From a virus (Duplodnaviria > Caudoviricetes), in the IMG/VR virus record IMGVR_UViG_3300037245_001069, positions 1 to 60,408 of that record: DNA of 60,408 nucleotides; one strand, given 5' to 3'. The translations under genes and the position numbers were made by a program. The notes under the pieces are model-generated. The model did no database searches, was not told where the DNA came from, and worked only from the letters and a program-made list of their open reading frames with translations. Below, in pieces: positions 1,980 to 30,689 of the stretch. Within the stretch, counting starts at the first letter, position 1. Each line of letters begins with the position of its first letter.

Positions 1980-2006
1980 ATTCATACTAATAATAGAAAA
2001 TGCGAA

Positions 2007-2375
2007 CTAACAAGCATATTCGTGATTTACATTTCCAGAACCTTTTACACACATCCTTTTAACATGTTCTTCTTCTTTGAAATTAGTCCATAATGGATCT
2101 TGTTTCTCTCCAGTTAGTTTTTGAAGTTTTCTAATTTTCTTTCTGTTTTCAATTAACTTATAACAAGTGCTACATGTAGCCATGTTTCGAGTTCTATTGA
2201 TTTGAAAGAAGTAAAATGGTTTTCTATGCTCGTCATCCATAGCATCGCAGAACCAAAATGTATGGCCTTGGTCTATTAGAGAATCTTGATATTCACGTAA
2301 GGTTTCAATATGGTCTTTTGTAGCTTTTATAAATATTTTATCCATGATTTTAAAGGTTTCAGATGTTTTTAACAT
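2007..2375 (-). CDS. Hypothetical protein (CxxC)
   Basis: ORF directly downstream of the recombinase. Confidence 0.55.
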   Translation of the reverse strand: MLKTSETFKIMDKIFIKATKDHIETLREYQDSLIDQGHTFWFCDAMDDEHRKPFYFFQINRTRNMATCSTCYKLIENRKKIRKLQKLTGEKQDPLWTNFKEEEHVKRMCVKGSGNVNHEYAC

Positions 2376-2387
2376 GACTTATTCATT

Positions 2388-3218
2388 TTATAATCTTATC
2401 GCCTTCACAGGACTTTCAGTTTCTAATATATCGGAATCAATTATCTTTATGTAGTTGGCAGTTGTATTAATGTTCTTATGCCCTGCTATCTTCTGCACAC
2501 GCCTTAAATCAACACCATTCTTTATAAGCTGAGTCAAACATGAGTGTCTTAAACTGTGGCTTGATATACGCTTATTTATCCCTGCCTTTTTTGCACTCGA
2601 TTTTACGATATTTTGAATACTTGTTACCGAATAATGATTACCAGTCGCCCCCTCAAATAAATACGAACTAACCCTATATACTTTCCAATATTCACGGATC
2701 AAAGACAAAAGAGAATCATCCAACATAACAATCCTGTCAATCTTACCTTTCGAATTACGGATGTTTATTTTTGAATTTTTACTATCAATATCGTTAATCT
2801 TAACATTAATTGCCTCTGAAACTCTTAACGCACAAGCATACATTAACGCAATAACTGTTCGATGTTTTAGGTTTATCGTAACATCCATCATCGTTTGCAT
2901 TTCTTCAGTTGATAAAATGTCCGGCTGTTTTTGTTCTATCTTTGGCCTTGGAAGAATATCGTGATCGAACTTCCTTCCCTTAACTTCTCGGTAGTACGCC
3001 TTGAAAGAGTTGATTATTGACATTTGCGAGGAACTGCTTATGTTTCTTCTTTTACGACTGACAATATACTTTCTTAAATCTGTCTCATCAATATCATCAT
3101 AGTGCTTATTTAGTCGCAATGCAACGACCTTTATAACTCCTATGTAAGAACTGATAGTCTTATCACTTAGATTTTTAAGTAATAGTTTTTCTTCGAATAA
3201 TTCAATCTTTTCGCTCAT
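2388..3218 (-). CDS. Tyrosine recombinase, integron-integrase-like/XerC-like; likely start MSEKIE at 3218
   Basis: Full catalytic set LRVSE, SKGK, HSLRH, GH, ANY; SAM-like N-terminus; TACATTTG box 4 nt upstream of ATG. Confidence 0.93.
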   Translation of the reverse strand: MSEKIELFEEKLLLKNLSDKTISSYIGVIKVVALRLNKHYDDIDETDLRKYIVSRKRRNISSSSQMSIINSFKAYYREVKGRKFDHDILPRPKIEQKQPDILSTEEMQTMMDVTINLKHRTVIALMYACALRVSEAINVKINDIDSKNSKINIRNSKGKIDRIVMLDDSLLSLIREYWKVYRVSSYLFEGATGNHYSVTSIQNIVKSSAKKAGINKRISSHSLRHSCLTQLIKNGVDLRRVQKIAGHKNINTTANYIKIIDSDILETESPVKAIRL

Positions 3219-3254
3219 GAAACAAATGTACGAATATAAATTTATATACACAAC

Positions 3255-3280
3255 ATTGGGCTATACATTAGTTACCGTGC
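3255..3280 (+). other. Putative attI-like site, crossover G^TT at 3271/3272
   Basis: GTT core 53 bp upstream of the recombinase start, pointing away from it; GTTACCGTGC is the exact reverse complement of 3382-3391. Confidence 0.7.
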
Positions 3281-3535
3281 ATTTTGCGCCTTTAAGTATT
3301 GGCACTTTTCTGGATTCGGATTAACTGAGCAAAAACCACCTATGCAATCTTTTTCATACAAGTCGCAAAACGTACCCTTCGGCACGGTAACAAAGTGCAT
3401 AGAAAATAATTTTACTAACTCCCCTACTTTAGGTGAATCAATATCATCATAAACTTTTGTCTCATCCCAATCTTTACGTATTTGCTCAATTGTATTTTCT
3501 TTGAAATACTTTTTTAAATTATCTAATATTGTCAT
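3272..3535 (-). CDS. Cassette 1 hypothetical protein (Cys-rich C-terminus)
   Basis: Starts in the attC-like loop, reads through R'' (FVTVP), stop TAA supplied by the GTTA core. Confidence 0.75.
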   Translation of the reverse strand: MTILDNLKKYFKENTIEQIRKDWDETKVYDDIDSPKVGELVKLFSMHFVTVPKGTFCDLYEKDCIGGFCSVNPNPEKCQYLKAQNAR

Positions 3536-3589
3536 TATTTCTTAGTTTTTAATTCGTAAAATAAAATTCCATGCACAGAACGTTAGCGG

Positions 3590-3949
3590 TTATGTGCCAA
3601 AATCTTCATACCATTCTTTAAAGTCTTCAATATGCATTGTTTGGCAGTTGTCATAAACATCTTCTGCTTTTGGCAAACAACCGCTAACAACGTTTTTATG
3701 TAAGCTGTTTTCGCTCGTAGTCTCAGAACTTCCAACCGCACAAATCGGTGGTTTTACTTTCGTAATCATTATTTTTGCCATAGCACGTCCAATATCTTCA
3801 TAAGTCCATTTGTTTTTCAAATAAACTTCTCTATGTTTTTCGTACTCTTTTATACTTTCCTGTATAATTTCTTGTACGTATAATTTTTGTTTCGCTTTTT
3901 CAAGTTTATCCTTTGCAAACTTGATAATTTCTTTATTTTCTTTGTCCAT
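3590..3949 (-). CDS. Cassette 2 hypothetical protein
   Basis: Reads through R'' as NVVSGC. Confidence 0.75.
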   Translation of the reverse strand: MDKENKEIIKFAKDKLEKAKQKLYVQEIIQESIKEYEKHREVYLKNKWTYEDIGRAMAKIMITKVKPPICAVGSSETTSENSLHKNVVSGCLPKAEDVYDNCQTMHIEDFKEWYEDFGT

Positions 3950-4063
3950 CGCTAGTAAATTTAAAGTTATTATCTCGTATCTAATTTCTCGGTTACCGTA
4001 GGGCGGTCAACACATAGCAGCAACGTTGTAAACAAACTAACTCGCTAAGAAGCTCGTTTATTT

Positions 4064-4231
4064 CTACATGTTGCTATTTAAATTTTCAAGATCTTGGATA
4101 AAGCCCGAAAGAATGAACAGCTGGCCGCGTATCGCCTCTCTGTTTATTGGGTTCGATACTTGTTTCTTCAGATCCTCTAAATGGATTCTTTCTTTCTCGT
4201 ATTTTTCAATCAACTTTTCAATTTTATTCAT
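4064..4231 (-). CDS. Cassette 3 small hypothetical protein (55 aa, MNKIEKLIEKYEKE...)
   Basis: Manually translated; lies wholly in the cassette body between 13-bp inverted repeats. Confidence 0.6.
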   Translation of the reverse strand: MNKIEKLIEKYEKERIHLEDLKKQVSNPINREAIRGQLFILSGFIQDLENLNSNM

Positions 4232-4396
4232 GTTCTATGCTTTAAGTTAAAAATTTAAACAGATTCCAACATTCCCGAAATACCGTTTGTTTACAACGGC
4301 CTCGATAACCTTAACCCTACTAACTACCTGACCGCGAGTTAGTCAGTTGACAACAAACGATAAACGGAACTTGATCGGCAGTGGTTAAGTGCCGGG

Positions 4397-4570
4397 TTAA
4401 CCTTTAGAATTGTTCCCAGCCTTTTCTAAAATAGAAATAGTGTAAGTGACAGCATCGATACTCATAGCGATCGGTAGTGCTTTCATATACTCACTTTCTT
4501 TGTTTAAAGTATCCAAATCTTCTTCTAATTTAATTAACACTTTTCTTAATTCTTCAATTGCTTTTTTCAT
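4397..4570 (-). CDS. Cassette 4 small hypothetical protein (57 aa, MKKAIEELRKVLIK...)
   Basis: Manually translated; lies wholly in the attC-like loop. Confidence 0.6.
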   Translation of the reverse strand: MKKAIEELRKVLIKLEEDLDTLNKESEYMKALPIAMSIDAVTYTISILEKAGNNSKG

Positions 4571-4634
4571 ACCTATTTCTTTTTTATAAAATTCTTTCTC
4601 AATCCAGAAACTCCGTTTACACGACCATTATAGT

Positions 4635-4868
4635 TCAGTTTGCTTTTATATTCTTGCCACATATCGGACAGTAATTGTCATCATTGCATTTCACCCTTTC
4701 ATCATGTATCCAGTCATCGCAAACCGAAACAATAACACAAGGTATATTTAATGCTTTAGGCTTTAGCACTTTAATTAATTCCGTTAATTCGTCCTGCTTT
4801 CTTTTAAGAGCATCTTCATACTTTTTAATCTCTTTCCAAATATCATCAACATCTTTTTGTGTTTTCAT
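4635..4868 (-). CDS. Cassette 5 protein: coiled coil plus C-terminal zinc ribbon (YCPICG)
   Basis: Reads through R'' as NIPCVIVS. Confidence 0.75.
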   Translation of the reverse strand: MKTQKDVDDIWKEIKKYEDALKRKQDELTELIKVLKPKALNIPCVIVSVCDDWIHDERVKCNDDNYCPICGKNIKAN

Positions 4869-4906
4869 TTTGTGGTTTAATAATCGAACTAAACTTAGAC
4901 AGAACG

Positions 4907-5257
4907 TTAGCGGTCATTGCCTAAATTATGGCTATGTTCGCTGCAACTATTATACTGTCTGATAAATTCTGCAAAATCTTTTTCTTTTACCTCTATTGAT
5001 AAGTGTCCCCAATTGTGCATCCAATGTAAGAAGTTCAGTGCATTTTCGGTAGTCAACGAACCGCTAACATTTTGTAAATGCAAACCGCTTTTCTCGTGGG
5101 TAGTTTCGCCATCGCTCAATTTTGCGTATAGATAATGATAAGCCAAACTGTGTTTACCGTATGGCATATACAGTACATCTTTACCATCATCATCACATAT
5201 ACATATTTGGTTATTTTCAACCTGCCTAATTTTAATTTTTATTTCCTTTATTTCCAT
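4907..5257 (-). CDS. Cassette 6 hypothetical protein, likely start MEIKEIK
   Basis: Reads through R'' as QNVSGS; stop TAA in the GTTA core. Confidence 0.7.
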   Translation of the reverse strand: MEIKEIKIKIRQVENNQICICDDDGKDVLYMPYGKHSLAYHYLYAKLSDGETTHEKSGLHLQNVSGSLTTENALNFLHWMHNWGHLSIEVKEKDFAEFIRQYNSCSEHSHNLGNDR

Positions 5258-5332
5258 CGCGCGTAAATTTATAATTTTGTAACTCGTTTGTAGTTCGGTT
5301 ATCGCAGGGCGGTCAACACATAGCCGCAACGT

Positions 5333-5569
5333 TTAATGCAATTCGGCATCTATCTTGTGGTCACATGCAGTGCATATAATGTCAGTTATTAGGTATCCAC
5401 AAATTCCGCACTTGCAAGCCGAAACGCTAACAGAGTCTAAATTGAACTTTAAAACTTGTTCAGCTAATTCATCTACTTTCTGTTGAAGTGCATCAAAATC
5501 TTCAGAGGTACTACCAGTATCGAAATACTTGTTTCCTACTTTCCCATATAATTTTCCGTGATATTCCAT
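5333..5569 (-). CDS. Cassette 7 protein with C-terminal Cys cluster
   Basis: Reads through R'' as DSVSVS; stop adjacent to the core. Confidence 0.7.
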   Translation of the reverse strand: MEYHGKLYGKVGNKYFDTGSTSEDFDALQQKVDELAEQVLKFNLDSVSVSACKCGICGYLITDIICTACDHKIDAELH

Positions 5570-5614
5570 GTGTATATTTTTAATTACGTTTTAAAACTCA
5601 ACTTCGCCGGAACG

Positions 5615-5785
5615 TTATGGCTTACCCTCTCCGTGTCTAACTATCTGTGTTTCGTCAATTTCTATCCAGTAGCAATCATTAAGTTCGTCATCCCATTTGT
5701 TATCAAACCATTCAGCAATAGACCATGCAAAATCTTTCATTACCCAGTAATAACCATTTTCTCTTTCCTTCGCTTTTGTATCCAT
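5615..5785 (-). CDS. Cassette 8 small protein (56 aa, MDTKAKERENGYYWV...)
   Basis: Manually translated; stop TAA in the GTTA core at 5614. Confidence 0.65.
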   Translation of the reverse strand: MDTKAKERENGYYWVMKDFAWSIAEWFDNKWDDELNDCYWIEIDETQIVRHGEGKP

Positions 5786-5865
5786 AATTTATCGGTATTT
5801 AAAAGTTTCCACTAAATTTCAAGGGCGGTCAACACATAGCATGAACGTTCAGTTCAATTACCTCA

Positions 5866-6537
5866 CTACCTAAAGCTAGTTCCTTTTAATTCTATAAAGT
5901 TAAACATCTCAGCCATCCGATCTTTTATTATCGGCTCGATATTCAAATCTTCAGGAGAGAAGTTTGACGTAACGTGTGTTAATTTACCTCTCTGAAATAA
6001 TTCATACCGAATCATAAACAGGGAATGAATAATAGAATCTGCCTTGGTGCCATAAATTTTCTCATCCATTTCCTTTCCAAATTCGTCGATGCATAGTCCA
6101 TACGGATCTCCATTTATATTATATCCATACTTCATCACATTCCCATCTTGTTTGTAACTTTCAATTATTTGCTCCAGGGAAACACATAAATAGCCATTCG
6201 AATTAAACGGGAAATAAGTTACAAGGAATTTTCTTATTGAAGCCATTAGAGCCGTTTTACCGCATCCAAACGTTCCGTATAGATAAATACCCTTGTTTAA
6301 GTCCAACCCTTCATTGCCTGTAAAGTGACGTAGCATAGCAGTTAATTTAGGTGCATTCTCTTTCCTTACAATAAACTCTTTGCCGATATATTCAGAAGCA
6401 ACCTTTATAAATTGTTTTTTTATCACTACTTCATTTTCGTCAAAATCAATTAACTTACTAAATCGCGTCGAGTGTTTTAAATCTTGTGTTATCGAATCCC
6501 TCGTCTTTCCTTCTAGTATCTTGCTGATGTGATCCAT
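5866..6537 (-). CDS. DnaC/IstB-like P-loop ATPase (helicase loader)
   Basis: Walker A GTFGCGKT, Walker B LCIDEFG, THVTSN; paired with the initiator. Confidence 0.85.
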   Translation of the reverse strand: MDHISKILEGKTRDSITQDLKHSTRFSKLIDFDENEVVIKKQFIKVASEYIGKEFIVRKENAPKLTAMLRHFTGNEGLDLNKGIYLYGTFGCGKTALMASIRKFLVTYFPFNSNGYLCVSLEQIIESYKQDGNVMKYGYNINGDPYGLCIDEFGKEMDEKIYGTKADSIIHSLFMIRYELFQRGKLTHVTSNFSPEDLNIEPIIKDRMAEMFNFIELKGTSFR

Positions 6538-7210
6538 TTTCTCTTGGTTTATAAACTTTATTCATGTCAATCGCCTTTGTTAAGGTGGATTTCCAATCGA
6601 TTTCTTTTGATTTTGATTTTTTCTTATGTTTCCAGCCAGCTTCGGTTCCCCAAAAATTAGTAATTGCTTTTTCTACTGAAAGGAGTATATCGAGATTTGG
6701 GTTGAATTTTTCCTGAGTGGAGATCCATTCTTGATTTTTATTTAATTCTAAATGAACTTTAGATAATTCTTTCAAATATATTCCGAAACTACCCCTCCAT
6801 GTATTATCCTTATCTTTATCCTTATCTTTATCCTTATCTTTATAGCTAGAGCTTTGCTGTGGCATTGCTTTAGCATTGCTAGACTTTTGCTTGCCACCCT
6901 TAGAACCTGCTTTCTGTCTACGTTTGCGCTGTTCTGAAAGTACGTCAAATTGCTCATTTAGAAATTCTATTGATAAAAAGTCAGTGTTTTCATCGTGCTT
7001 AATTATTTCCAAATTAATCAGTGATTCAATCAAAGCTATGGCATCGTTAAAGCGTTTCTTTAGCAATGCTAGAGTAATGCTACAATCCTTAAACCAATAG
7101 TATGCACATATATCCGAAAATACTCCCTTTGTTTTATAGTCCTCTAAACTTATGTCTCCATTAAGCCATTCTGAGGCTGTAAATCTGAAATATGGTAATT
7201 CCTTTGCCAT
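6458..7210 (-). CDS. Phage replication initiator-like protein
   Basis: LPYFRF..SEWL N-terminus, RRQKAGSKGG and DKDKDK linker typical of phage initiators; upstream of the ATPase. Confidence 0.75.
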   Translation of the reverse strand: MAKELPYFRFTASEWLNGDISLEDYKTKGVFSDICAYYWFKDCSITLALLKKRFNDAIALIESLINLEIIKHDENTDFLSIEFLNEQFDVLSEQRKRRQKAGSKGGKQKSSNAKAMPQQSSSYKDKDKDKDKDKDNTWRGSFGIYLKELSKVHLELNKNQEWISTQEKFNPNLDILLSVEKAITNFWGTEAGWKHKKKSKSKEIDWKSTLTKAIDMNKVYKPRENGSHQQDTRRKDEGFDNTRFKTLDAI

Positions 7211-7241
7211 TGTTAAATTTTAACATTATTAATCAAAAAAA

Positions 7242-7403
7242 TTACAGATGAATTAACTCTGCACCTTTCGCTACTACTACAGCCAATTCTCCACGATTAA
7301 TCATTCGTTGGACTTGAACGGGATTAGTTGCATTATCCTTAGCATACTGGCTCTTTGAAATCAGCTTCTTTGGGTCAATATCTTTAGTTTTTATCTTCTT
7401 CAT
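7242..7403 (-). CDS. Small HTH-like DNA-binding protein (53 aa)
   Basis: Manual translation: LISKSQYAK...VQRMINRGEL. Confidence 0.55.
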   Translation of the reverse strand: MKKIKTKDIDPKKLISKSQYAKDNATNPVQVQRMINRGELAVVVAKGAELIHL

Positions 7404-7734
7404 AGTTAATATTTAACGTTTTAAAAGTAAAGAAAACCGGACTTCTCCGGTAATTCTTTTGCAATGTATTGAATTTTATTTAACCTACCAAATTAGAAAA
7501 TCCAGGATCTCTAAATTGTGACCTTTTATACTTATTATTCCAATCAATTATATTCATCTTAAAATCACAGAGACCGTGAAAGCAGATTACATCTGATTTT
7601 CCTTTGTAAATATTCTTGGAAAGGAATAAGTGCCCGTAAATTTTATCTTTACATTTTGGGCAAATCTTATTTATTTTATCGTGTAATTTTGCCATATCGT
7701 TTAATTAAAGTGTTATTTTCTAGGCTCCATAAAT

Positions 7735-8010
7735 TCAATCATAGTAAAGATCGTGATTAATACATATCAGGTGTATATCAAGTATCGCCCTGAAAGTCCA
7801 AGAATTGCCACTATCGTCGCTATTGAATTGACGAATGTATTTAGTGCCTTTAAGTATCCTATACTTTGCCTGAGTCGCTTTCACTACTGCTCTATACTCT
7901 GTAAATGTTAATCCAATTTCGAGAACGGGTGCATTGAATAAGAACTCGCAAGCATCACAGTTATAATCCTTTCGTGCTTTCGGTTTTGATTCGTGTATTA
8001 CTGATATCAT
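7735..8010 (-). CDS. Hypothetical phage protein (KARKDYNCDAC)
   Basis: ORF in the early operon. Confidence 0.65.
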   Translation of the reverse strand: MISVIHESKPKARKDYNCDACEFLFNAPVLEIGLTFTEYRAVVKATQAKYRILKGTKYIRQFNSDDSGNSWTFRAILDIHLICINHDLYYD

Positions 8011-8012
8011 AA

Positions 8013-8486
8013 TTAAAGAGTATTAATATCTACCCAACAACCTTCTGGAATGTCTATGGCGAAGTGCCATGAAATCAATTTTAATACAACTTTGTATGGG
8101 AGGTTTGAAAAATCTCCAGCCTCTAAACTGATCGTTGCATTTATCCATGCCTTTGCGCCTTCAACATTTCTAAAGCTTTCAGGTTCCTCGTCATAGAGCC
8201 ATTTGGATAGTTTATCTATCGGAATAAATTCTTTCCCATCGTTATGTCCGGGAACCTTTATTGGTTTGGTTAAGTCGGATAATGGGTGACATATAAATTT
8301 ACACTCATTACCGAGCCTCTTTCCAGCCGATCCTCCCTCGTAAGTCACATAGAGTTCACCTACGAGATAATAGAATCCATTTGATTTTGATCGCATAATG
8401 CCCACATAATCGACTTTGTGGTTCAGTATTTGAATTTCTAGACTGCCGGATAATTGGCAGATGATGTTTTGATTAATTGTTTTCAT
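8013..8486 (-). CDS. Hypothetical phage protein
   Basis: ORF in the early operon, HPLSDLTKPI motif. Confidence 0.65.
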   Translation of the reverse strand: MKTINQNIICQLSGSLEIQILNHKVDYVGIMRSKSNGFYYLVGELYVTYEGGSAGKRLGNECKFICHPLSDLTKPIKVPGHNDGKEFIPIDKLSKWLYDEEPESFRNVEGAKAWINATISLEAGDFSNLPYKVVLKLISWHFAIDIPEGCWVDINTL

Positions 8487-8489
8487 CGA

Positions 8490-8879
8490 TCAGTTTATTT
8501 TATGATTATTTCTACCATTATACTCAACCAAAATATGAGGGTAATGCTCCTTTAGAAAGTCTTTCAAACTCTGTTTCTTTACAACTTCCTTTTTATTTCC
8601 GGTAACAATAAATACAGAATTATTATTCCCCTCTTCCATTTTCTCGTTTACGATCATTATCTCACCGTATTCAAGCAATTCACTTGTCCTTTTTTGAACT
8701 TGATTATAGGTAAGCCCCGATTCAACTGAAGCCTCCCTGATCGTTTTGGCAAAGAAATAAGAGTCCTTAACTATTTCTCGGTGGGTTTTCCTTCTCTCTT
8801 TGTTTTCAGGATCTAGATAAGCCTTAGTGCTAGCTGTAGTCATAGTTTTAAAATTTGTTTGTTCAAATATAAAACACAA
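8490..8879 (-). CDS. Winged-helix-like DNA-binding protein
   Basis: TIREAS..SGLTYNQVQKRTSEL. Confidence 0.55.
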   Translation of the reverse strand: MCFIFEQTNFKTMTTASTKAYLDPENKERRKTHREIVKDSYFFAKTIREASVESGLTYNQVQKRTSELLEYGEIMIVNEKMEEGNNNSVFIVTGNKKEVVKKQSLKDFLKEHYPHILVEYNGRNNHKIN

Positions 8880-9030
8880 AGGGTTAAGAATGAATATAAA
8901 TTAAAAGAACAATTTCAACTGCCTACCATTTAATTCATTCTGAGAACGGAACTTTCCATCTCCACATTTACAACAAACCGGTTCCTGATAATTCAAGTCC
9001 CAGTTCGTCATTAGTTCTACGCTGGTTAAT

Positions 9031-9387
9031 TTACTTTTGCATTTGTGGCATTTCATATTCTTCAACATTTATAAAAACAACATCTTCATTTTTAGTTTTA
9101 CGAGATGATACTTTTATACTTTCCACTATATCCCACTTATCATCTTCAAATATAATATCCTCAATCATTTTAACCATTGCAATACAATTGGAAGCATCTA
9201 ACGGGCGTTTCTTAAAGTAAAAGGCATATTCTACTTGATATGTTTTATCCTTACTGAAAACGTGCTTAAACTTACTTTTGACGATCAACTTATAAGTGTC
9301 CTTTATTGCCTTTCTTTTAGTCCAATGTTTTCCGGCATACCATTCATTAAGACTTATTTTGGGTAAATTTTTTAATGTAATCTGCAT
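9031..9387 (-). CDS. RusA-like Holliday junction resolvase
   Basis: ISLN, RPLDASN..K...D, EDD motifs. Confidence 0.75.
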   Translation of the reverse strand: MQITLKNLPKISLNEWYAGKHWTKRKAIKDTYKLIVKSKFKHVFSKDKTYQVEYAFYFKKRPLDASNCIAMVKMIEDIIFEDDKWDIVESIKVSSRKTKNEDVVFINVEEYEMPQMQK

Positions 9388-9631
9388 GAATTTCTTTTAA
9401 ATATTCTAAGTATTTTGTTTTGTCTCCGTAAAGTTCGTGTTCTTCCCTGGTCAATGCCATTAGATTCTCAATCCTATCTGCATTTTTAGAGCCACCCATT
9501 CCGCGAGCTTCAATATGATGAATATCTACGGCTGGGTCCCCTGATATCTCACTTACGCAATCGTGCCATCCACTTTGAGGATCGTAATCAACGCCAAAGG
9601 AATCGAAATATAATTTAGTGTGTTTCTGCAC
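9347..9631 (-). CDS. Small HNH-like nuclease
   Basis: DIHHI...RGMGGS...NLMALTREEH. Confidence 0.7.
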   Translation of the reverse strand: MQKHTKLYFDSFGVDYDPQSGWHDCVSEISGDPAVDIHHIEARGMGGSKNADRIENLMALTREEHELYGDKTKYLEYLKEIHADYIKKFTQNKS

Positions 9632-9651
9632 AGGTTCTTCTTTTAGGTGGT

Positions 9652-10116
9652 TTACGTTCCATCGGTCTTGTACTTTTTGTAACTGAATACTTGTGGCTTA
9701 ATGTCGTTTCTTCTAAGTATGGATGAAATCAAATTAATCTCCCCTTGATGGTTACAGTTTTGTTTTTCAGGTTCTTTTATAACTGATATTTTGCCTTTCT
9801 CATTCACGTAAAGCAATCCCCACCTTAAAGGTAGTTCAGACTCTTTAATGATTCCTTCATTGCAAATATAGCTCCGAAAGCCACCAAGCCCATGATCTGA
9901 ATTCTTTCGCCAATACTTCTTTTTGTCGGAAAGAAAATCAGATCGCGTTGCCTTTGCTTCTATAAGCTGGGTTGATCCGCTGTTCCATCCAAAAGCATCA
10001 GGACATTCACCAACTCTTTCAAGTTCGCAAACAGCATACGTGCATTTATTGAAAGGAACAATACCATTGCTTCTTAAATACCTTGCTGCCTTTATGCATA
10101 ATTCACGATGATTCAT
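9652..10116 (-). CDS. PD-(D/E)XK nuclease-like protein (MmcB-like)
   Basis: ECPDAFG...IEAKATRSDFLSD, ELP..WGL. Confidence 0.7.
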   Translation of the reverse strand: MNHRELCIKAARYLRSNGIVPFNKCTYAVCELERVGECPDAFGWNSGSTQLIEAKATRSDFLSDKKKYWRKNSDHGLGGFRSYICNEGIIKESELPLRWGLLYVNEKGKISVIKEPEKQNCNHQGEINLISSILRRNDIKPQVFSYKKYKTDGT

Positions 10117-10503
10117 AATCTATCTGTTACTATTTTAATATCATCATAAACCGGTTCCAACTTCTCTGCTTTCGGCTTAATACAGTATCCAACCAGTAAG
10201 TTGTAACCTGCCGGAAATTTCCAGTTAAACTTGCTGTCTTTAAAAATACTGAAGCCTGATTCGTTTGGTTTACTCATGGTGTATAAGGTTTGAATTTCTC
10301 ATTAGCAGTAAAAGAACAGTTAGAATAGTGAACTGAATCCATGTAGTGAATGTGAGTGGCGATTGAATCCTGAGTCTGTTTAAGCCCTTGCATAATTTCC
10401 ACTTGCTGCTTGTGATTAAATTCATTGGATATAAAAGTAATCCCTAATCCTATGACGATAAATAAAAGTACAATCGTAATATCGTTTCTTGTAGCGTAAT
10501 CTT

Positions 10504-10977
10504 TCATGATTCGTCTTTTAATTCTGGATAAATTTTATCAGCATCTAAAATCGTAAACAATACAGGATTTATTTTATTCGCGTATCTCAAGACAGGCTCA
10601 TAAGCATTTCTGTATTCTGAGTTAAATTCATGAAGTATGTTTTTAAGCTCATTCTTGCTACTTATTACCGATGGATGCCCTTTCATAAAGAAGTGTTCCG
10701 TTTCTTCTTGTGTGTACATTAAAGCGTAGTGCATGATAACCATACACACAAACCTTGGGTACGCATATATCCTTTTCCGGCTCTTTCTGTTTGCCATAAA
10801 TTCATCATAATCAACATTTCCGCATATACATGCTTCCTTAATTATGAAGTCTCTGTTCGATCTAATAGAATTTCTTTTAAATTCCATCTTTCTGATAGTG
10901 TCCACTGTTTTTTGCCTCTCTTTCATTTCTATATATGTCTGATGTAGTAATTTGAAAAATGTTATTAGTTTTTTCAT
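10504..10977 (-). CDS. DnaA C-terminal-like HTH protein
   Basis: SRKR.YAYPRF.CM...T..E...F...HPSVI pattern. Confidence 0.5.
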   Translation of the reverse strand: MKKLITFFKLLHQTYIEMKERQKTVDTIRKMEFKRNSIRSNRDFIIKEACICGNVDYDEFMANRKSRKRIYAYPRFVCMVIMHYALMYTQEETEHFFMKGHPSVISSKNELKNILHEFNSEYRNAYEPVLRYANKINPVLFTILDADKIYPELKDES

Positions 10978-10981
10978 AGTT

Positions 10982-11422
10982 TTAATCTAAATGTTTATTA
11001 ACAGACTGAAGCCCATTTAGCTCAGCCTTTATAGCTTCAATATTCGTTAAATTTGACTTGTATAAAGCCACTGCTGCCTCCATTTCGAACATCTCCTTAT
11101 AGCAATATCCTTCTGCCATTTTCCGAGCAGCAGAAGCAACCACATTACCAACTTCAATTCCGTCAATTTTATCAATCAATCCGTTCTTTAGTTTGATTTC
11201 AGTAATAGTTACTTTTTTAGCAAATTCTGAAATTGCTGTTGCTTTCTGAAGTGCAGATTGAAAAATAACAGAACGGGCAAGTCTCAACTCCTTTATTTTG
11301 TGGAGTATTTCTTCTTTGGTGTTGCCGTAATCGAAATTATCAACGGCAGCAGGAATTACAGGACGATCTTTTTCGCCTTGTAACTCCTTTGCTCTTACTT
11401 CTGCCCAAAATTCATCAGACAT
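10982..11422 (-). CDS. Hypothetical helical protein
   Basis: ORF translationally coupled to recT. Confidence 0.65.
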   Translation of the reverse strand: MSDEFWAEVRAKELQGEKDRPVIPAAVDNFDYGNTKEEILHKIKELRLARSVIFQSALQKATAISEFAKKVTITEIKLKNGLIDKIDGIEVGNVVASAARKMAEGYCYKEMFEMEAAVALYKSNLTNIEAIKAELNGLQSVNKHLD

Positions 11423-12552
11423 TATTTAACCTCCTCCGCTTCTTGAATATGATCATCTGCGGGACCATCATCAAGTAAATCTGATTTATGTTCTTGTTTT
11501 TTGGTCCAATCTTCAAATACTTCGTTGTCGTATTTTGCCTCGATTTCTAACGCCTTGATTTGATCGTCAGATAGTCCTGTTTTTGGCATGAATTTGAACG
11601 CCCAATTATAAACTGTTTTAAGAGCCATTTCGGTATAGTCTGAATCCCAAGGACAACCCTTGCCAGCCTTTACAGCTTCGGAACGGGCTTTGATTTCTTC
11701 AATTCTTTCTTTGGTCATCGTATCAAAAGATATGGCACCGTTGGATAATTTACAAACCCAATATCCACCCATTAATTCACCCCTGTCTCCCCATGATTGA
11801 GGGATATGTTTAATGCTTGGATTTGTGCCTTTATGAACCTCGAAAACATCCTTCTCGTACACCAATGTAGCATAAGAATCTTTAACATGCCCTGTACGGT
11901 TTACGATTTCCCTCTTACCCATATAAGAAGATGTAAAATAAATCTTCCCTTTTCTTGGAACTAAATACCCAAGTTTTAATTCAGGGTTCAAGGTAAGTCC
12001 AGTCAGTGCAATATTTTTAACTGCTTCCACAAGATATTCGGGATAATTTCTAGCACAGCTAATTAAATAATCCTTAGCCATCAAGTGCTGAACAGCAAAA
12101 TTAATCTCTTTGGCGAATTGCTGCTCTGTTCCTCCTGCGGCTAAGAATGCTTTTTTTGGAGAAACTAAAACTGTTCCAAGTCCGGCATCAATAAGTTTAC
12201 GAGGCAATGCAGGTGCAGCGATGGGCACAGGAACTTGTACTTTAGGCGCGGTAGTATCTTCCTTTTTAACAACAGGCTCTTTTTTAACCTGAACCTTAGC
12301 CTTCTCTTTTGGCGGCTCATTCTTTTTGACTGCCGGAGTTTTATCTTCCGAGCCAAATTTAATGTAAGCCTTTTCGAATCCTACAGGATGTGCCTTTTCG
12401 TGCGATCTCATGGTTGCTACGAATAAAGCATCATTCATTTTGTCAAGTTCAGGCATTGTGAATTTTACCCCTTTCGGACAGCCTACGCATTCGAATCCAT
12501 CACCATTGAATTTGAATCCAAGGTCTTCTAGTAATTGTTCTTTTTTAATCAT
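11422..12552 (-). CDS. recT: RecT-family single-strand annealing protein
   Basis: GLTLNP...YLVP, SYMG, VYEKD.F, PW.SDY.EMALKT. Confidence 0.88.
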   Translation of the reverse strand: MIKKEQLLEDLGFKFNGDGFECVGCPKGVKFTMPELDKMNDALFVATMRSHEKAHPVGFEKAYIKFGSEDKTPAVKKNEPPKEKAKVQVKKEPVVKKEDTTAPKVQVPVPIAAPALPRKLIDAGLGTVLVSPKKAFLAAGGTEQQFAKEINFAVQHLMAKDYLISCARNYPEYLVEAVKNIALTGLTLNPELKLGYLVPRKGKIYFTSSYMGKREIVNRTGHVKDSYATLVYEKDVFEVHKGTNPSIKHIPQSWGDRGELMGGYWVCKLSNGAISFDTMTKERIEEIKARSEAVKAGKGCPWDSDYTEMALKTVYNWAFKFMPKTGLSDDQIKALEIEAKYDNEVFEDWTKKQEHKSDLLDDGPADDHIQEAEEVK

Positions 12553-12553
12553 T

Positions 12554-13558
12554 TTATTTATCGTTATAAAAATTCATTTCTTCATTCTTTTTCCATCCCG
12601 GAACTTCAGGGAACATAACCCTGTGCCCTTTCCAGTCAGGCTCAATAAAAACAGAAGCGCCTGGATAAGAATCATTTTCCTTACACGAAATATGTTGAGC
12701 TAAAAGTTGTTGAAACTTCAAAGCCCCATGTTTGGGAAGAATGATCTGACCTCCTTTTTCATCTGTCTCGTCAGATACTTCATAAGCCCAATTGTTGGCA
12801 GATACTAAAACTGCATCATAGGGCTTGCTCTTTTGTTGAAACACCCAATAAAAAGGCTTCCAAACTCCGGTAATTTGATGTTCGAAAAACTGATAAAAAG
12901 CTGCTGAAATATCATACTTGAATTTTACTATCAATTTAGCAATATTCGATTCATGTAATTCAGTTTCAACAGTAGTTTTCCAATCAATAATCTTCTTTTT
13001 TGTGGCTAAATCTTTCCTGTATTTGAATCGGTGTCCTTTGTATTCACAAAAACAAGATTGTTCAGCTTCGCCCCATTTCATAAATTGTCGAATAGTCTTA
13101 GAATAATGTTGATTATGGTACAAAAGCTCATTGATCATTTCCTTAGCCATTGCAATCTCATTGTGAGAAGTTGTTTCTTTACCTGGATTATTCGCCTTGG
13201 CTTCTTCGTAGGCTTCCATGTACTTATTAGAAGCAATTCCATAAGCATTGCCTGTTTTTGGGTTCAAAGGAGCATCAAAAACAAACCAATCTCTATTGAA
13301 CCCATCTAGATTTCCATTATTAACCATAGATGCCAACATATCATGGTAAACAGAACCCTCCATCGCTGCTTTTAAGCTGATTTTAGACTCACTTGGATTA
13401 TCCTGAAGGTATTTGTACCACTTAGGAGAAGTAAGGTAATATTTTAGCTTCGTAGAGCTAATGAACTCAGAATATTTCTCTCCATTATGATATTCATCGT
13501 TAGGAATTTCATCTGGTTTGGAAATATAGGGTAAGGTATGTGGATATAAATTACTCAT
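12554..13558 (-). CDS. RecE/ExoVIII-like PD-(D/E)XK exonuclease
   Basis: NDEYH, ISST.LK, GS.YH, IIDWKTT, Y..SAAFY; adjacent to recT. Confidence 0.8.
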   Translation of the reverse strand: MSNLYPHTLPYISKPDEIPNDEYHNGEKYSEFISSTKLKYYLTSPKWYKYLQDNPSESKISLKAAMEGSVYHDMLASMVNNGNLDGFNRDWFVFDAPLNPKTGNAYGIASNKYMEAYEEAKANNPGKETTSHNEIAMAKEMINELLYHNQHYSKTIRQFMKWGEAEQSCFCEYKGHRFKYRKDLATKKKIIDWKTTVETELHESNIAKLIVKFKYDISAAFYQFFEHQITGVWKPFYWVFQQKSKPYDAVLVSANNWAYEVSDETDEKGGQIILPKHGALKFQQLLAQHISCKENDSYPGASVFIEPDWKGHRVMFPEVPGWKKNEEMNFYNDK

Positions 13559-13854
13559 GATCTTATAGATTCTTCAATAATTTTAACATCTACGAATGAT
13601 ATATATTTTGGATCACCATCTTCATGCTGAATTTCAGCTTTATGTATGTCCATATTCTGAGATTCAAGATCGCGTCCAGTATCAAAGGATTTATAAACAT
13701 TTCCTTCAATATGGACAAAGCAATCTTCAAACTCAAAATCAAAACTAGAATAGCCATACCAATGAGTATCGTAGGTTGTATCAAACCCTTTCATCTCCAT
13801 TTTTTCGATGGCTGATTCTAATTCTGCTATTAAGTTATTTAGGCTGTAATTCAT
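13555..13854 (-). CDS. Hypothetical protein
   Basis: Coupled ORF in the operon. Confidence 0.6.
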   Translation of the reverse strand: MNYSLNNLIAELESAIEKMEMKGFDTTYDTHWYGYSSFDFEFEDCFVHIEGNVYKSFDTGRDLESQNMDIHKAEIQHEDGDPKYISFVDVKIIEESIRS

Positions 13855-15416: not shown

Positions 15417-15426
15417 TGTAATTTAT

Positions 15427-15957
15427 TTATTTGGTTTTTAATCCTTTTTCAATTTCTTCGATGATGACAGTTCCGGTTATGTCTGCCCTAAATTGCAATG
15501 AGTTGTCACGGATATTAAATTTCTCCAACCATGCGGATCTTACCGCATTATTATATCTCTCTTTTATCGACAAAACTAATTTATCTTTTAGTTTAGCTAT
15601 TTCAGAATTTAATTTACCCTGCTCGTCATCAAGATCTCTCCATTCATTTCTTAATTCTTCAGGGAATTGATCGAGAGTTAATGAGCTCTCTATTCTAGAT
15701 ATTTTAACAGTGGAGAGTTTCTTTACTTCTGAAACTTTAACAACCTTAAATTCAGGCTTATTAATGTCCGTTGAGATAATAACATTCTGGACAACAGTTG
15801 CGCTTACTGCAAACCCTTTGTATTGATTCCTAAAGTAGTTTTCAACTTCGTATTGCTGGAAGATTTTATCGCACCCTATTACAAAATGATGTTGTACTTG
15901 AAGATTTCCGGCTCTAGTATGATTGCCGATTTCAATGTTGTAAAATGATTTTTCCAT
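15427..15957 (-). CDS. Hypothetical protein
   Basis: ORF with A-rich leader. Confidence 0.65.
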   Translation of the reverse strand: MEKSFYNIEIGNHTRAGNLQVQHHFVIGCDKIFQQYEVENYFRNQYKGFAVSATVVQNVIISTDINKPEFKVVKVSEVKKLSTVKISRIESSLTLDQFPEELRNEWRDLDDEQGKLNSEIAKLKDKLVLSIKERYNNAVRSAWLEKFNIRDNSLQFRADITGTVIIEEIEKGLKTK

Positions 15958-16308
15958 GATATTTATTTGGTTTAAAATGTATTCAGTTTTTAGTATATAA
16001 TTATAAGTCCGTCTATAATATCAAATCTATTGCCAAATGGTAGTTTAATAACAGTTCTGTCATTGGCTGCCAATATGTGTATTTCTGTTTTCGGTTTCGT
16101 ATTTATCAATATCTCGTTTGGCGTTTCTTCGTTTGCCAAATCTTTTAGTTGGTGTAAGTTTATTTGTCTTGCCATTTTATTTAATTTTGTGGTTTTAAAG
16201 AAGAACAGGGAGGAAAACCAAACCAATAAACACACATGAAAACAAACCCCAAAAAACCTCCCTGTTCAATATTTTATAAAGTTATCAACAATCAAATATA
16301 GTATTTAC

Positions 16309-16773
16309 CTAAGACTTTGCAAACGATTTATCATTGATTTTTTTGATACGAATTGCCTCTCTCTTAGATTTTTCCAATAACTCCTTCCGTTTTTTATTTC
16401 TGGAAACTTTTGCGTACCTGTTTTTGTAGATATTCACGTAAGCCCGCCTCAAAGCATTAAAAGCCATGTTTACCTCAACTGCGTATTTTTCAGGGATATT
16501 ATTTCTGCAAATATTACCAGGCTTCCCAGTCAGTACAGTTGACAATTCTCTAAAATTAAGCGTTGCCCATGCTTTTTTATCGAAATGATCCATCGGTTTA
16601 CCTTCGCCATTTTCGTCAATATGAATGCCTACTTTAGTAGCTTCAAGGCATACTAAAGCCAGTTGTTTTGTTGCAGCATCTATTGTAGCTTGGTGCCTTT
16701 GTCCCTCGAACATGAATTTGCGTTGGAGCATTAGCCGTTCATACGTCGTGTATCTTACTCGTTTGTCTTTCAT
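16309..16773 (-). CDS. Hypothetical basic protein
   Basis: 154-aa ORF. Confidence 0.6.
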   Translation of the reverse strand: MKDKRVRYTTYERLMLQRKFMFEGQRHQATIDAATKQLALVCLEATKVGIHIDENGEGKPMDHFDKKAWATLNFRELSTVLTGKPGNICRNNIPEKYAVEVNMAFNALRRAYVNIYKNRYAKVSRNKKRKELLEKSKREAIRIKKINDKSFAKS

Positions 16774-18602: not shown

Positions 18603-18678
18603 ATCAATTAATTTAGTAACGTTTTGCACCCACGAAGCCGGGGCCATTGACGGCACCGGCGGAGGGCTGGAGATGTTT

Positions 18679-29415: not shown

Positions 29416-29543
29416 TTTCAGAATAACGGTCGTTGTATGTATTTTTGAACAACAGATAGGTTTAATTATTAACCCATCGTTCCGATAACAGACTATATTC
29501 TAAGTAACTAAGGTTCAATTATATATACAACTTGTTAGCGGTT
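29416..29543 (-). repeat. attC-like site, minus orientation
   Basis: Arms GTTGTATGTATTTTTGAAC / GTTCAATTATATATACAAC between AAC and GTT cores. Confidence 0.75.
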
Positions 29544-29625
29544 CGGTTTATTTCAGCGTAATGGTTTCTTTTTCATTGTGTTGGAATGAATAATTATCTA
29601 ATGTCACCAAGAGAGACTTCCTTTA

Positions 29626-30063
29626 TTAAAAATGGTAGCCTGAAAATACAGCGAATACTATCAGAGAAAGAATTGATAAAGCTAGAAGAACAAAAAAAGC
29701 GTTTAATAGCTTGCCGTAAATCGGTTTTCGGGCGGTTTTTCTTAAAGTGGTGCCGGTGGAATTATCCTTATTCTGTATATATCTTTCATAATCACACCAC
29801 TGATGATACAGAGTGTCTGTTTCGCTATATAAGAAGGCTAACCCACAAAGGATACAAGATCCGCAGAATAATACAGACGATATGAAAGCGATGTACTCAC
29901 ATATATCATTAGCACTGTCAGACTTTAGGCTGATTATCAATCCTAAGATTATTGCGATAACTGATACGCAATTCTTGACCCATCGCAATTCTGCTTCTGT
30001 GCTTTTATCTATTGCATCTGCTAATCTCATTAAGTCAGCGTTGCTTGGTTTATTTTCTTCCAT
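29626..30063 (-). CDS. Cassette-borne membrane protein (3 TM)
   Basis: Antisense to the surrounding phage genes; TM segments. Confidence 0.7.
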   Translation of the reverse strand: MEENKPSNADLMRLADAIDKSTEAELRWVKNCVSVIAIILGLIISLKSDSANDICEYIAFISSVLFCGSCILCGLAFLYSETDTLYHQWCDYERYIQNKDNSTGTTLRKTARKPIYGKLLNAFFVLLALSILSLIVFAVFSGYHF

Positions 30064-30137
30064 AATTTAAAATATTAGTATGAAACGGTTTTGGCTATAC
30101 TTAAAAACAGATTTCCTGCTCGATGCAAGAGCATTTA

Positions 30138-30587
30138 TTATTGGAATGATGACTTATCTACTACTTGAAGCATTATTAAAATATCTTTCCAGTTAGCAAG
30201 GATGAATCCTACTAAAATCCCTAAAATCCCAACTATAAAATCCCTCTTTAGTTTTCTATTTTGAAGATTTAAATTCACCCTTGTTAATTTCGCGTTTTCA
30301 ACATTTAATTCGTCAAATTTCTTCTTTAGATCATCTTGTTCTGATAGATATTCCTGATGCTTTGAATAAGAGCCATGTTTGGACAAAGTAGACAATACAC
30401 TACTACTTAATTTCCACCATAACCCGTCAGGTTCAATCCATCCTTCATCTTCCAAAATAGCCAACAACTTCTCCCATCCAACAACTTCTTTCTTATCTAA
30501 CCATCCTTTTAATGTATTAGACTTTGGATATGATTCATGTAATCTCTTGATGCAGTAATCTGCATATTTTAATTCGTATTCATTCAT
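30138..30587 (-). CDS. Cassette-borne protein: wHTH-like, coiled coil, C-terminal TM
   Basis: Antisense to the surrounding phage genes. Confidence 0.7.
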   Translation of the reverse strand: MNEYELKYADYCIKRLHESYPKSNTLKGWLDKKEVVGWEKLLAILEDEGWIEPDGLWWKLSSSVLSTLSKHGSYSKHQEYLSEQDDLKKKFDELNVENAKLTRVNLNLQNRKLKRDFIVGILGILVGFILANWKDILIMLQVVDKSSFQ

Positions 30588-30624
30588 AATATCTAATTAC
30601 TCTCATTCCCTCCCTCTTAAACTG

Positions 30625-30689
30625 ACCGCTAACGAGTGATATGGTTAGTGATTTCTTGTCATTAACTATTATCACTTATTATTCTGAAA
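30625..30689 (-). repeat. Short attC-like site (probable recipient site)
   Basis: Arms AGTGATATGGTTAGTGA / TCATTAACTATTATCACT with one extra base. Confidence 0.72.

What the first reader, a model, noticed from the sequence alone, without database searches (positions are those of the whole stretch)
2388..5850. Phage-encoded integron-like cassette system: tyrosine recombinase, attI-like site and eight cassettes
Seen: a GTT core lies 53 bp upstream of the recombinase start and points away from it, then recurs at 3582, 4025, 4338, 4627 (ATT), 4906, 5331, 5614 and 5847. In the best-preserved units the bases after the GTT reappear as the exact reverse complement inside the same unit: GTTACCGTGC 3271/3382, GTTAGCGGTT 3582/3679, GTTGTAAACAAAC 4025/4285, GTTAGCGGT 4906/5060. 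The sequence after the AAC pairs with the sequence before the next GTT (unit 1: GTGCATAGAAAATAATTTTAC vs GTAAAATAAAATTCCATGCAC). Each unit holds exactly one ORF. Established: this R''/L''...L'/R' layout, with R'' matching the unit's own start, is the mark of integron cassettes integrated as circles. Inference: the phage uses this recombinase to acquire and shuffle accessory early genes rather than to lysogenise. By eye the enzyme lacks the IntI-specific insertion between patches II and III, so standard integron detectors may miss it. I cannot confirm novelty without a literature search.
Basis: partly seen in the sequence, partly recalled or inferred. Interest (0 to 1): 0.93.

Follow-up and report, generated by a model that had tools for sequence, protein, structure and literature searches.

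The report
Phage integron-like gene cassette platform
This phage carries a Xer-type recombinase next to a conserved docking site and a row of small gene units whose ends match as integron cassettes do, and related phages use the same set-up to hold interchangeable anti-defence genes.

Summary
Only 1.04% of random positions show this. AACGTT is clustered at the gene junctions (7 of 18 genome copies in 2.3 kb, p=2e-6).

The recombinase (2388-3218, minus) is Xer/XerA-like and lacks the roughly 43-residue IntI insertion. In 10 non-redundant related loci it sits downstream of arrays of 85-125-nt hairpins of the form TAAC-spacer-stem-loop-stem-GTTA. A covariance model finds these hairpins only on the recombinase strand and only upstream of it. 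In 29 of 43 consecutive pairs, the GTTA box of one hairpin is the exact complement of the next TAAC box. Two close relatives share their flanks but have unrelated arrays, bounded by the first hairpin and a conserved attI-like site. The cargo includes DNA methylases, a Tad6 Thoeris inhibitor and NAMPT.

In the window itself the hairpins are stretched or decayed, and the model gives no significant hit in 3200-5900. Recombination is inferred, not shown. I found no published description of this Xer-type system.

The parts
2388..3218 (-). Xer/XerA-like tyrosine recombinase, 276 aa, catalytic residues intact
   Evidence: Pfam Phage_integrase 1.4e-39. NCBIfam best hit is XerA_Arch at 194 bits, below its cut-off of 220; integron integrase TIGR02249 scores 152 bits in two stretches, below its cut-off of 265. 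IntI4 (2a3v) aligns in two pieces, leaving about 43 chain residues unmatched. R132, H221, R224, H247 and Y256 are invariant in A1.
3219..3270 (-). attI-like conserved site plus the recombinase's own promoter
   Evidence: Conserved in all relatives with upstream sequence. Homology between relatives starts at the AAC. The match to the TTG...TAnnTTTG promoter form is judged against a recalled Bacteroidota consensus.
3271..3581 (-). Cassette 1. ORF g1 3272-3535; end box 3271-3280; inner box 3382-3391; arms 3395-3415 and 3556-3576; 5-nt spacer 3577-3581
   Evidence: Boxes complementary 10 of 10. Arms 17 of 21, matched by 2 of 300 shuffles. Fold z=+0.71.
3582..4024 (-). Cassette 2. ORF g2 3590-3949; end box 3582-3591; inner box 3679-3688; strong hairpin 3582-3688; left-half motif 4001-4024
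   Evidence: Boxes 10 of 10, then the family's G/A mismatch at position 11. Fold z=-3.5, 0 of 200 shuffles. The right-half profile's top genome-wide hit is 3705-3677, E 0.007.
4025..4345 (-). Cassette 3. ORF g3 4064-4231; end box 4025-4037; start box 4285-4297; compact hairpin 4284-4359
   Evidence: Boxes 13 of 13, whereas the hairpin partner at 4346-4358 matches only 11 of 13. Fold z=-3.4 and -2.9 on the two strands.
4346..4632 (-). Cassette 4, right boundary uncertain. ORF g4 4397-4570; arms 4422-4440 and 4573-4591
   Evidence: Arms found. Fold z=-1.33, not significant. No end complementarity.
4633..4905 (-). Cassette 5, left boundary uncertain. ORF g5 4635-4868
   Evidence: GTT at 4633 overlaps the stop codon. 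Weak right-half hit at 4753-4732, E 9. No end complementarity.
4906..5330 (-). Cassette 6. ORF g6 4907-5257; end box 4906-4914; inner box 5060-5068; left-half motif 5307-5330
   Evidence: Boxes 9 of 9. It shares its 5' region with cassette 2 (D1 92%, D3 73%), but the proteins are barely alike (E 0.021).
5331..5613 (-). Cassette 7. ORF g7 5333-5569; inner GTTA box 5423-5431
   Evidence: The first 39 residues of g7 are 49% identical to the ORF of the recombinase-proximal cassette of L020. The arm pairing is marginal, matched by 9 of 300 shuffles. The fold is not supported.
5614..5846 (-). Cassette 8. ORF g8 5615-5785; left-half motif 5823-5846; distal AACGTT core 5844-5849 just after the DnaC-like ATPase gene
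   Evidence: The 18-nt motif occurs exactly three times and only here. AACGTT lies at the junction.
29418..30680 (+). Second, isolated cassette in the late region. Family-type hairpin 29418-29543; body 29534-30633 with two minus-strand ORFs; hairpin 30634-30680
   Evidence: Covariance-model hit of 18.2 bits, E 0.03-0.14. End boxes are an exact 9-nt inverted repeat of the same word used by cassettes 2 and 6. Fold of 30600-30745 gives z=-2.67.

Best explanation
The region is an integron-like platform. It consists of a phage-encoded Xer-type tyrosine recombinase, a conserved attI-like site just upstream of it, and an array of about eight small gene cassettes transcribed towards the recombinase.

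Family grammar, read on the recombinase strand: each cassette starts with a 4-6-nt spacer and an imperfect hairpin, whose loop often holds the ribosome site and start codon. A GTTA box follows, then the ORF body. The cassette ends in a TAAC box whose TAA is often the stop codon. The GTTA box and the following TAAC box of the same cassette pair over about 12 nt, with a fixed G.T mismatch.

Inferred mechanism: the recombinase cuts at AA|C of a folded single strand, or at the attI-like site, and exchanges one strand, as IntI does at attC and attI. Cassettes would therefore leave as circles and enter next to the recombinase.

In this window the hairpin loops have grown to 100-330 nt and swallowed the 5' halves of the ORFs. 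Most arm pairings have decayed. The array may therefore be old or only partly mobile.
For: Recombinase and docking site
- The recombinase is Xer/XerA-like and has no IntI insertion.
- The attI-like site is conserved in relatives at 57-77% identity.

Family hairpin
- 20 examples share one form.
- 22 consensus pairs, 16 of them with compensatory changes.
- Model R1 gave 31 hits at E<=0.0013. All lie on the recombinase strand and upstream of the gene. They include loci whose recombinase is only 31% identical.
- It gave 10 more such plus-strand hits, plus one minus-strand echo of the best L048 hit, in L048-L050 at 35-38% identity.
- It gave 2 in the cultured Polaribacter phage Leef_1.
- It gave none in 17 bacterial loci.

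Cassette signature
- 29 of 43 consecutive pairs have an exact complement of 8 nt or more; 23 of 43 match at 12 or more of 14 positions.
- Against a hairpin's own TAAC box the figure is 1 of 43.
- Random pairings give 124 of 4868.
- 8 of 10 last cassettes match the box at the attI-like junction.
- All 19 pairs with an exact 10-nt match have G against A at position 11.

Variable arrays between fixed flanks
- L005 and L020 (recombinase 88% identical in DNA) lose homology at the first hairpin and regain it about 10 nt before the attI-like junction.
- L014 against L003, L011 and L012: homology starts at the AAC.

Window
- 4 of 9 cores show the signature.
- The top five genome-wide hits of a left-half profile are all array junctions on the minus strand.
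- The top hit of the right-half profile is the inner box of g2.
- g7 has a relative inside a canonical cassette of L020.
- The attI-like junction box pairs 10 of 10 with the inner box of cassette 1.
- In run X1 a contig has a different left flank up to 4024, and another diverges after 5616. The window's own contigs break at 3389-3418 and 4332-4361.
Against: - No recombination event was observed.
- Model R1 finds nothing significant in 3200-5900. The best hit is 10.5 bits, E 1.6-7.
- Only two window hairpins fold better than shuffles. Units 1, 4 and 7 do not.
- Five of the nine cores lack the signature.
- The left-half profile hits are individually weak (E 0.6-5) and overlap the AACGTT clustering already counted.
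- Run X1 is probably the source sample. It holds contigs only, and most of its joints have short sides.
- A recombinase without the I2 helix is not known to act on folded single strands.
- The recombinase could also, or instead, integrate the phage.
Confidence: 0.72

Rival explanations
1. The recombinase is an ordinary phage integrase or dimer resolvase acting on one attP- or dif-like site. The junction repeats would then be regulatory elements (promoters, terminators, translation-control hairpins) plus a local duplication of units 2 and 6.
For: - The 18-nt motif lies upstream of three genes.
- Units 2 and 6 share their 5' regions.
- The conserved site next to the gene could be an attP.
- The family hairpin model fails in the main array.
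- Hairpin loops in relatives hold ribosome sites and start codons, so a role in expression is likely in any case.
Against: - Regulation does not explain why each unit's two ends are complementary with unit-specific sequence.
- It does not explain why close relatives differ by whole arrays between fixed boundaries.
- No relative above 29% identity was found in one genome each of 185,579 species, so no prophage copies are seen.
Confidence: 0.12
2. Cassettes are shuffled by homologous recombination between the conserved hairpins, which would act as portable homology patches, as proposed for promoter-stem-loop modules of T4-type phages (recalled). The recombinase would be a bystander.
For: Hairpin arms and even loop positions are conserved between unrelated phages. 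This gives 20-40 nt of shared sequence.
Against: - Homologous exchange inside hairpins predicts no complementarity between a cassette's own two ends and no fixed G.T mismatch.
- It does not explain the exclusive placement upstream of, and on the strand of, this recombinase across 31-88% identity.
- Junctions share only four bases with the attI-like site.
Confidence: 0.12
3. The window's pattern is due to chance in AT-rich DNA.
For: Inverted-repeat density in the region equals the genome background.
Against: 4 of 9 cores show the signature against a 1.04% background, and AACGTT clustering has p=2.3e-6. The word GTTAGCGGT occurs exactly six times, as three inverted pairs.
Confidence: 0.02

Closest known systems
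Integrons (IntI, attI, attC cassettes)
   Same: - Recombinase, then docking site, then array, in the same geometry when read on the recombinase strand.
- Imperfect hairpins with AAC and GTT cores.
- The crossover inferred at AA|C.
- A cassette's inner box complementary to its own start.
- Variable arrays beside a fixed platform.
   Different: - The recombinase lacks the IntI insertion and scores below the integron-integrase cut-offs.
- ORFs point towards the recombinase and often start inside the hairpin loop.
- The R stem is about 12 bp with a fixed G.T mismatch.
- The platform is carried by phages.
attC clusters without integrase (CALINs) in phages, e.g. Polaribacter phage P12002L (PMC9892861; abstract, section 3.4 and passages read)
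   Same: - Flavobacterial phage host.
- Methylase cargo.
- Hairpins with TAACG...TGTTA ends.
- Model R1 gives weak hits between the P12002L methylase genes (E 0.08-0.15).
- The paper reports that one P12002L site was recombined by IntI1.
   Different: - That paper reports no cognate recombinase, and P12002L has none annotated.
- Here a Xer-type recombinase and an attI-like site accompany the arrays.
- I could not check whether its two sites coincide with my hits, because the coordinates are in supplements that are closed.
Xer recombination on folded single strands (CTX phage and other IMEX elements; search listing only, the rest recalled)
   Same: A Xer-type enzyme, a hairpin that rebuilds a duplex site, and exchange of a single strand.
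   Different: There the host XerCD integrates a whole phage at dif. Here the enzyme is phage-encoded and the units are gene cassettes in an array.
pdif modules of Acinetobacter plasmids (abstract in the listing only)
   Same: Gene modules bounded by Xer-type sites in inverted orientation.
   Different: They use host XerC/XerD and 28-bp duplex sites. They have no hairpins, no array next to a dedicated recombinase and no attI-like site.
Archaeal XerA (PDB 5hxy, 4a8e)
   Same: Best sequence match, aligning end to end.
   Different: XerA resolves chromosome dimers at dif (recalled).

Membership tests
Integron (IntI type) | Integrase carries the IntI-specific insertion (I2 helix region) | tested here: not met
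   IntI4 residues 181-240 have no counterpart; the query has only 17 residues there. TIGR02249 scores 152 bits against a cut-off of 265, and PRK15417 scores 88 against 435.
Integron (IntI type) | attI site next to the integrase gene, joined to the first cassette at the core | tested here: met
   A conserved site follows the AAC in all relatives. Homology starts at the AAC. 8 of 10 last cassettes pair with the junction box. In the window the pairing is 10 of 10.
Integron (IntI type) | attC: imperfect hairpin with an AAC box at the 5' end and a GTT box at the 3' end | tested here: inconclusive
   Met in relatives. In the window only 4284-4359 is compact. Units 1, 4, 6 and 7 have distant, weak arms. 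The standard attC model was not available.
Integron (IntI type) | A cassette's inner box matches its own start (circular origin) | tested here: met
   Window: 4 of 9 cores. Relatives: 29 of 43 pairs, against 1 of 43 for a hairpin's own box.
Integron (IntI type) | Cassette ORFs read away from the integrase, driven by a promoter at the platform | tested here: not met
   All ORFs are on the recombinase strand and read towards it.
Hairpin family of model R1 (defined here) | Significant match to the covariance model on the recombinase strand | tested here: not met
   In the main array the best hit is 10.5 bits, E 1.6-7. The second locus, 29418-29543, scores 18.2 bits, E 0.03-0.14.
Temperate-phage integrase with attP/attB | Integrated copies in bacterial genomes | tested here: not met
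   No relative above 29% identity over most of its length was found among one genome each of 185,579 species. The host may be unsampled.
Xer/dif dimer resolution | A single duplex site with two inverted arms and a 6-8-bp centre, and no array | not tested
   No dif-type site was searched for. The presence of arrays argues against this as the sole role.

The most novel reading that the evidence does not exclude
Flavobacterial phages carry their own analogue of the integron, built on a Xer-type recombinase that never acquired the IntI insertion. It captures hairpin-bounded cassettes whose translation starts lie inside the recombination site. It would serve as an exchangeable store of counter-defence genes: DNA methylases, the Thoeris inhibitor Tad6 and NAD salvage. 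That would mirror the bacterial integrons that store defence systems. On this reading, the window's eight unannotated small ORFs and its isolated 1.1-kb cassette are untested anti-defence candidates.
Probability: 0.55. Interest if true: 0.92.

Novelty: new variant of a known kind. Interest (0 to 1): 0.86.

Why it matters
- **A second origin of cassette capture.** Integron-style capture is thought to depend on the IntI insertion. A Xer-type enzyme doing the same job would show that the mechanism arose more than once, or before that insertion. It would also escape every integron detector that keys on IntI.
- **A direct route to new anti-defence genes.** Cargo in relatives includes Tad6 (4.6e-41), five confident DNA methylases plus one weak match, and a NAMPT with a PRPP-synthase-like gene. 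The arrays would then mark where phages keep swappable counter-defence genes.
- **A widespread family.** More than 115 recombinase clusters at 53% identity or more occur in metagenomes, on contigs up to 85 kb, and are labelled only as XerD.
- **A bench model exists.** The cultured, harmless marine phage Polaribacter phage Leef_1 has the same system.

Tried and rejected
**Searches that found nothing**
- blastn of 2300-8300 against GenBank phages: no match.
- The DnaC-like ATPase as a probe in viral contigs: none.
- The 18-nt junction motif in viral contigs: none.
- Rfam on the window and six loci: no family.
- Pfam and PHROGs on the window's cassette ORFs: nothing, except one stray hit at E 0.006.

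**Folds**
- 29412-29550: z about -0.5. 20435-20517: z=+0.2. 58063-58175: z=-1.35.
- The g4 region: z=-1.33. The g7 region: z=+1.12.
- The expanded-loop hairpins are therefore not supported by energy.

**Ideas considered and dropped**
- I first read 3582-3688 and the unit 1 and unit 6 pairs as tiny ORF-less cassettes, or as invertible C-terminal segments. I dropped both readings once relatives showed ORFs that start in the hairpin loop and run through the GTTA box.
- I looked for a partner arm for the 18-nt motif of units 2, 6 and 8. None exists on either strand.
- Units 2 and 6 are weak as protein paralogues (E 0.021).

**Run X1**
- It holds contigs only and is probably the source sample.
- The joints 3422>4030, 4646>5414, 4752>5588 and 5458>5573 have sides under 30, and 5608>3974 lies in a repeat. 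I set these aside.
- The depth spikes (131x at 4310-4443 against about 13x) may come from other organisms.

- I did not use the look-up of encoding contigs, because it is stated to be closed. The 33-kb contig of the closest recombinase (P0002, 77% identity) could therefore not be read.
- Supplements of PMC9892861 were not requested, because they are closed.

**Literature**
- Six full-text searches found canonical integrons and CALINs in phages, but no Xer-type cassette platform.

Full report
**What the window is.** The window is a complete 60,408-bp viral record with direct terminal repeats. Genes from about 2000 to 22000 lie on the minus strand. The finding covers the downstream end of that module. 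In transcription order it runs from a DnaC-like ATPase gene (5866-6537) through eight small ORFs (g8 to g1, 55-119 aa) to a 276-aa tyrosine recombinase (2388-3218).

**Observation.** Four cores are followed by a word whose exact reverse complement lies inside the same unit: 10, 10, 13 and 9 nt. A match of 9 nt or more within 450 nt occurs at 1.04% of random positions and at 11 of 1042 GTT positions. AACGTT is not over-represented in the genome, with 18 copies against 16 expected by chance. However, 7 of the 18 lie in 2271 nt (p=2.3e-6), and six of those are at stop codons. The word GTTAGCGGT occurs exactly six times, as three inverted pairs: 3582/3680, 4906/5060 and 29534/30625. Inverted repeats as such are no denser here than elsewhere. 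Two boundaries need moving: 4338 to 4346, and 4627 probably to 4633.

**The recombinase.**
- Pfam Phage_integrase 1.4e-39, with an N-terminal SAM-like domain.
- The best NCBIfam model is archaeal XerA. The integron-integrase models score well below their cut-offs and match in two pieces.
- Against solved structures, XerA aligns end to end. IntI4 aligns as residues 9-180 and 241-317, so about 43 IntI residues have no counterpart.
- The catalytic Arg, His, Arg, His and Tyr are invariant in four relatives.

**Relatives.**
- Protein-guided scans gave loci with recombinases 57-73% identical and 31-38% identical.
- Apart from the recombinase, no ORF of the first 14 kb of the window is shared with L002-L005.
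- What is shared is about 50 nt upstream of the gene. This stretch has an AAC, a conserved TA-rich block, and a promoter of the Bacteroidota type (consensus recalled).
- The family is large: 2394 proteins at E<=1e-40 and more than 115 clusters at 53% identity or more. All are 273-277 aa, labelled XerD at most, on contigs up to 85 kb.
- None closer than 29% was found in one genome each of 185,579 prokaryote species.

**The hairpins.**
- Upstream of the recombinase in L005, L014 (which contains L002), L016, L020 and L021, 20 elements share one form. The form is a TAAC box, a 4-6-nt spacer starting with G, an imperfect stem, a loop, the returning stem, 1-4 nt (usually 1-3), and a GTT (mostly GTTA) box. 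Lengths cluster near 86 and 124 nt.
- Ten long examples give a consensus of 22 pairs, 16 of them with compensatory changes.
- A covariance model built on them (R1) found 31 hits at E<=0.0013 in 25 sources. All lie on the recombinase strand and upstream of the gene. Three each lie in L006 and L008, which were not used to build the model.
- It found 10 more plus-strand hits, plus one minus-strand echo of the best L048 hit, in L048-L050 and two in Polaribacter phage Leef_1.
- It found none in 17 bacterial loci with distant recombinases.

**Cassette signature.**
- I took consecutive model hits in 10 non-redundant loci. The 14 nt from the GTT of one hairpin equal the reverse complement of the 14 nt ending at the AAC of the next. 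The exact run is 8 nt or more in 29 of 43 pairs, and identity is 12 or more of 14 in 23 of 43.
- Against the hairpin's own AAC box the figure is 1 of 43. For random pairings it is 124 of 4868.
- The last hairpin pairs with the box at the attI-like junction in 8 of 10 loci. Both misses have further, undetected units in between.
- All 19 pairs with an exact 10-nt run have G against A at position 11. This is a fixed G.T mismatch in the folded stem.
- L018 holds one 2.9-kb cassette whose ends match at 15 of 16 positions.
- Because the junction at the conserved site keeps the AAC side, the crossover is at AA|C on the recombinase strand. Read on that strand, the order of array, docking site and recombinase, and the position of the cut, match an integron read on its bottom strand. 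The ORFs, however, run the other way.
- In L006, L008 and L020 the ORFs start inside the hairpin loop and end at the TAA of the next TAAC box.

**Turnover.**
- L005 and L020 have 88% identical recombinase DNA and share upstream genes. Homology stops at 3753 in L005 and 4658 in L020, which is the first hairpin. It resumes at 7935 in both, about 10 nt before the attI-like junction.
- The 4.2-kb and 3.3-kb arrays between those points share only a 40-nt hairpin piece.
- L014 aligns with L003, L011 and L012 only from the AAC of the junction onward.

**Cargo in relatives.**
- A C5 cytosine methylase in L005.
- A Dam-type methylase in L014.
- N6/N4 methylases in L006 and L050.
- MT-A70 and Tad6 (4.6e-41) in L049.
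- A PRPP-synthase-like gene with NAMPT in L018.

**The window against this grammar.**
- The junctions carry the left half of the site. A profile of 31 left halves puts its top five genome-wide hits at 4916, 5333, 5621, 4027 and 3591, all on the minus strand. The 18-nt motif found three times is the left arm.
- The right halves lie inside the ORFs. The top hit of the right-half profile is 3705-3677 (E 0.007). Weaker hits lie at 5092, 5443 and 4753.
- The loops therefore appear stretched to 100-330 nt and now contain the 5' parts of the genes.
- Arm pairing survives in unit 1 (17 of 21; 2 of 300 shuffles). It is marginal in units 6 and 7 (7 and 9 of 300).
- By folding energy, only 3572-3698 and 4275-4365 beat shuffles.
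- Model R1 has no significant hit in the array.
- Its best window hit is a separate hairpin at 29418-29543. The GTTA box of that hairpin pairs with 30625-30633, which is followed by another hairpin. Together they bound a 1.1-kb unit with two reversed ORFs in the late region.
- The first 39 residues of g7 match the ORF of the recombinase-proximal cassette of L020.

**Reads.** One DNA run (X1, a marine sediment metagenome and probably the source) holds the stretch as contigs.
- The window's own contigs break at 3389-3418 and 4332-4361.
- One contig has a different left flank up to 4024, and another diverges after 5616. Both places are predicted cores.
- These are hints only.

**Literature.**
- PMC9892861 (abstract, section 3.4 and passages read) reports canonical integrons and integrase-less attC clusters in phages. 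These include Polaribacter phage P12002L with methylase cargo, and one of its sites was recombined by IntI1.
- P12002L has no annotated integrase and gives weak R1 hits between its methylase genes.
- PMC8138268 (two passages read) notes that the IntI insertion is essential for integron function.
- Six searches found no description of a Xer-type platform.

**Verdict.** The pattern is real. It is best explained as an integron-like cassette platform of a previously undescribed, phage-borne, Xer-type family. The window is a member of that family with decayed hairpins. Recombination itself remains to be shown.

Noticed in passing
window 29418-30680: An isolated 1.1-kb unit in the late plus-strand region. 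It is bounded by a family-type hairpin and an exact 9-nt inverted repeat of the same word used by cassettes 2 and 6. It holds two minus-strand ORFs of 145 and 149 aa that match no known family.
   Followed up: partly
window 6804-6847: Three tandem 12-nt repeats inside ORF 6458-7210. They encode a Lys-Asp repeat run.
   Followed up: no
window 20441-20511 (minus) and 58069-58169 (plus): Weak hits of the hairpin model (about 10 bits, E about 2) with TAACG...TGTTA ends. The first has 8-nt complementary outer boxes. Neither folds better than shuffles.
   Followed up: partly
window 27331-27780: A plus-strand ORF with an NPPY-type motif, suggesting an N6-adenine DNA methylase outside the array. I did not scan it against any library.
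   Followed up: no
L006 7359-7745 and L008 811-1232: Cassette ORFs begin in the hairpin loop and share a short N-terminal peptide encoded by the returning stem and the GTTA box. The recombination site therefore also encodes a constant leader.
   Followed up: partly
L018 167-2821: A single 2.9-kb cassette carries a PRPP-synthase-like gene, an unknown 132-aa ORF and a NAMPT. This is an NAD-salvage set of the kind phages use against NAD-depleting defences (function recalled).
   Followed up: partly
L057 (Polaribacter phage Leef_1) 6597-8700: This cultured flavobacterial phage has the same layout: replication genes, small ORFs with TAAC/GTT-boxed hairpins, then an annotated integrase. By eye, two further units (7577-7695 and 8146-8355) also fit.
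   Followed up: partly
window 4440-4567: In run X1, contigs at about 190-240x depth (the window's own contigs are at about 13x) match both flanks of g4, the hairpin arms, but not its interior. This may be a far more abundant relative that shares only the arms.
   Followed up: no
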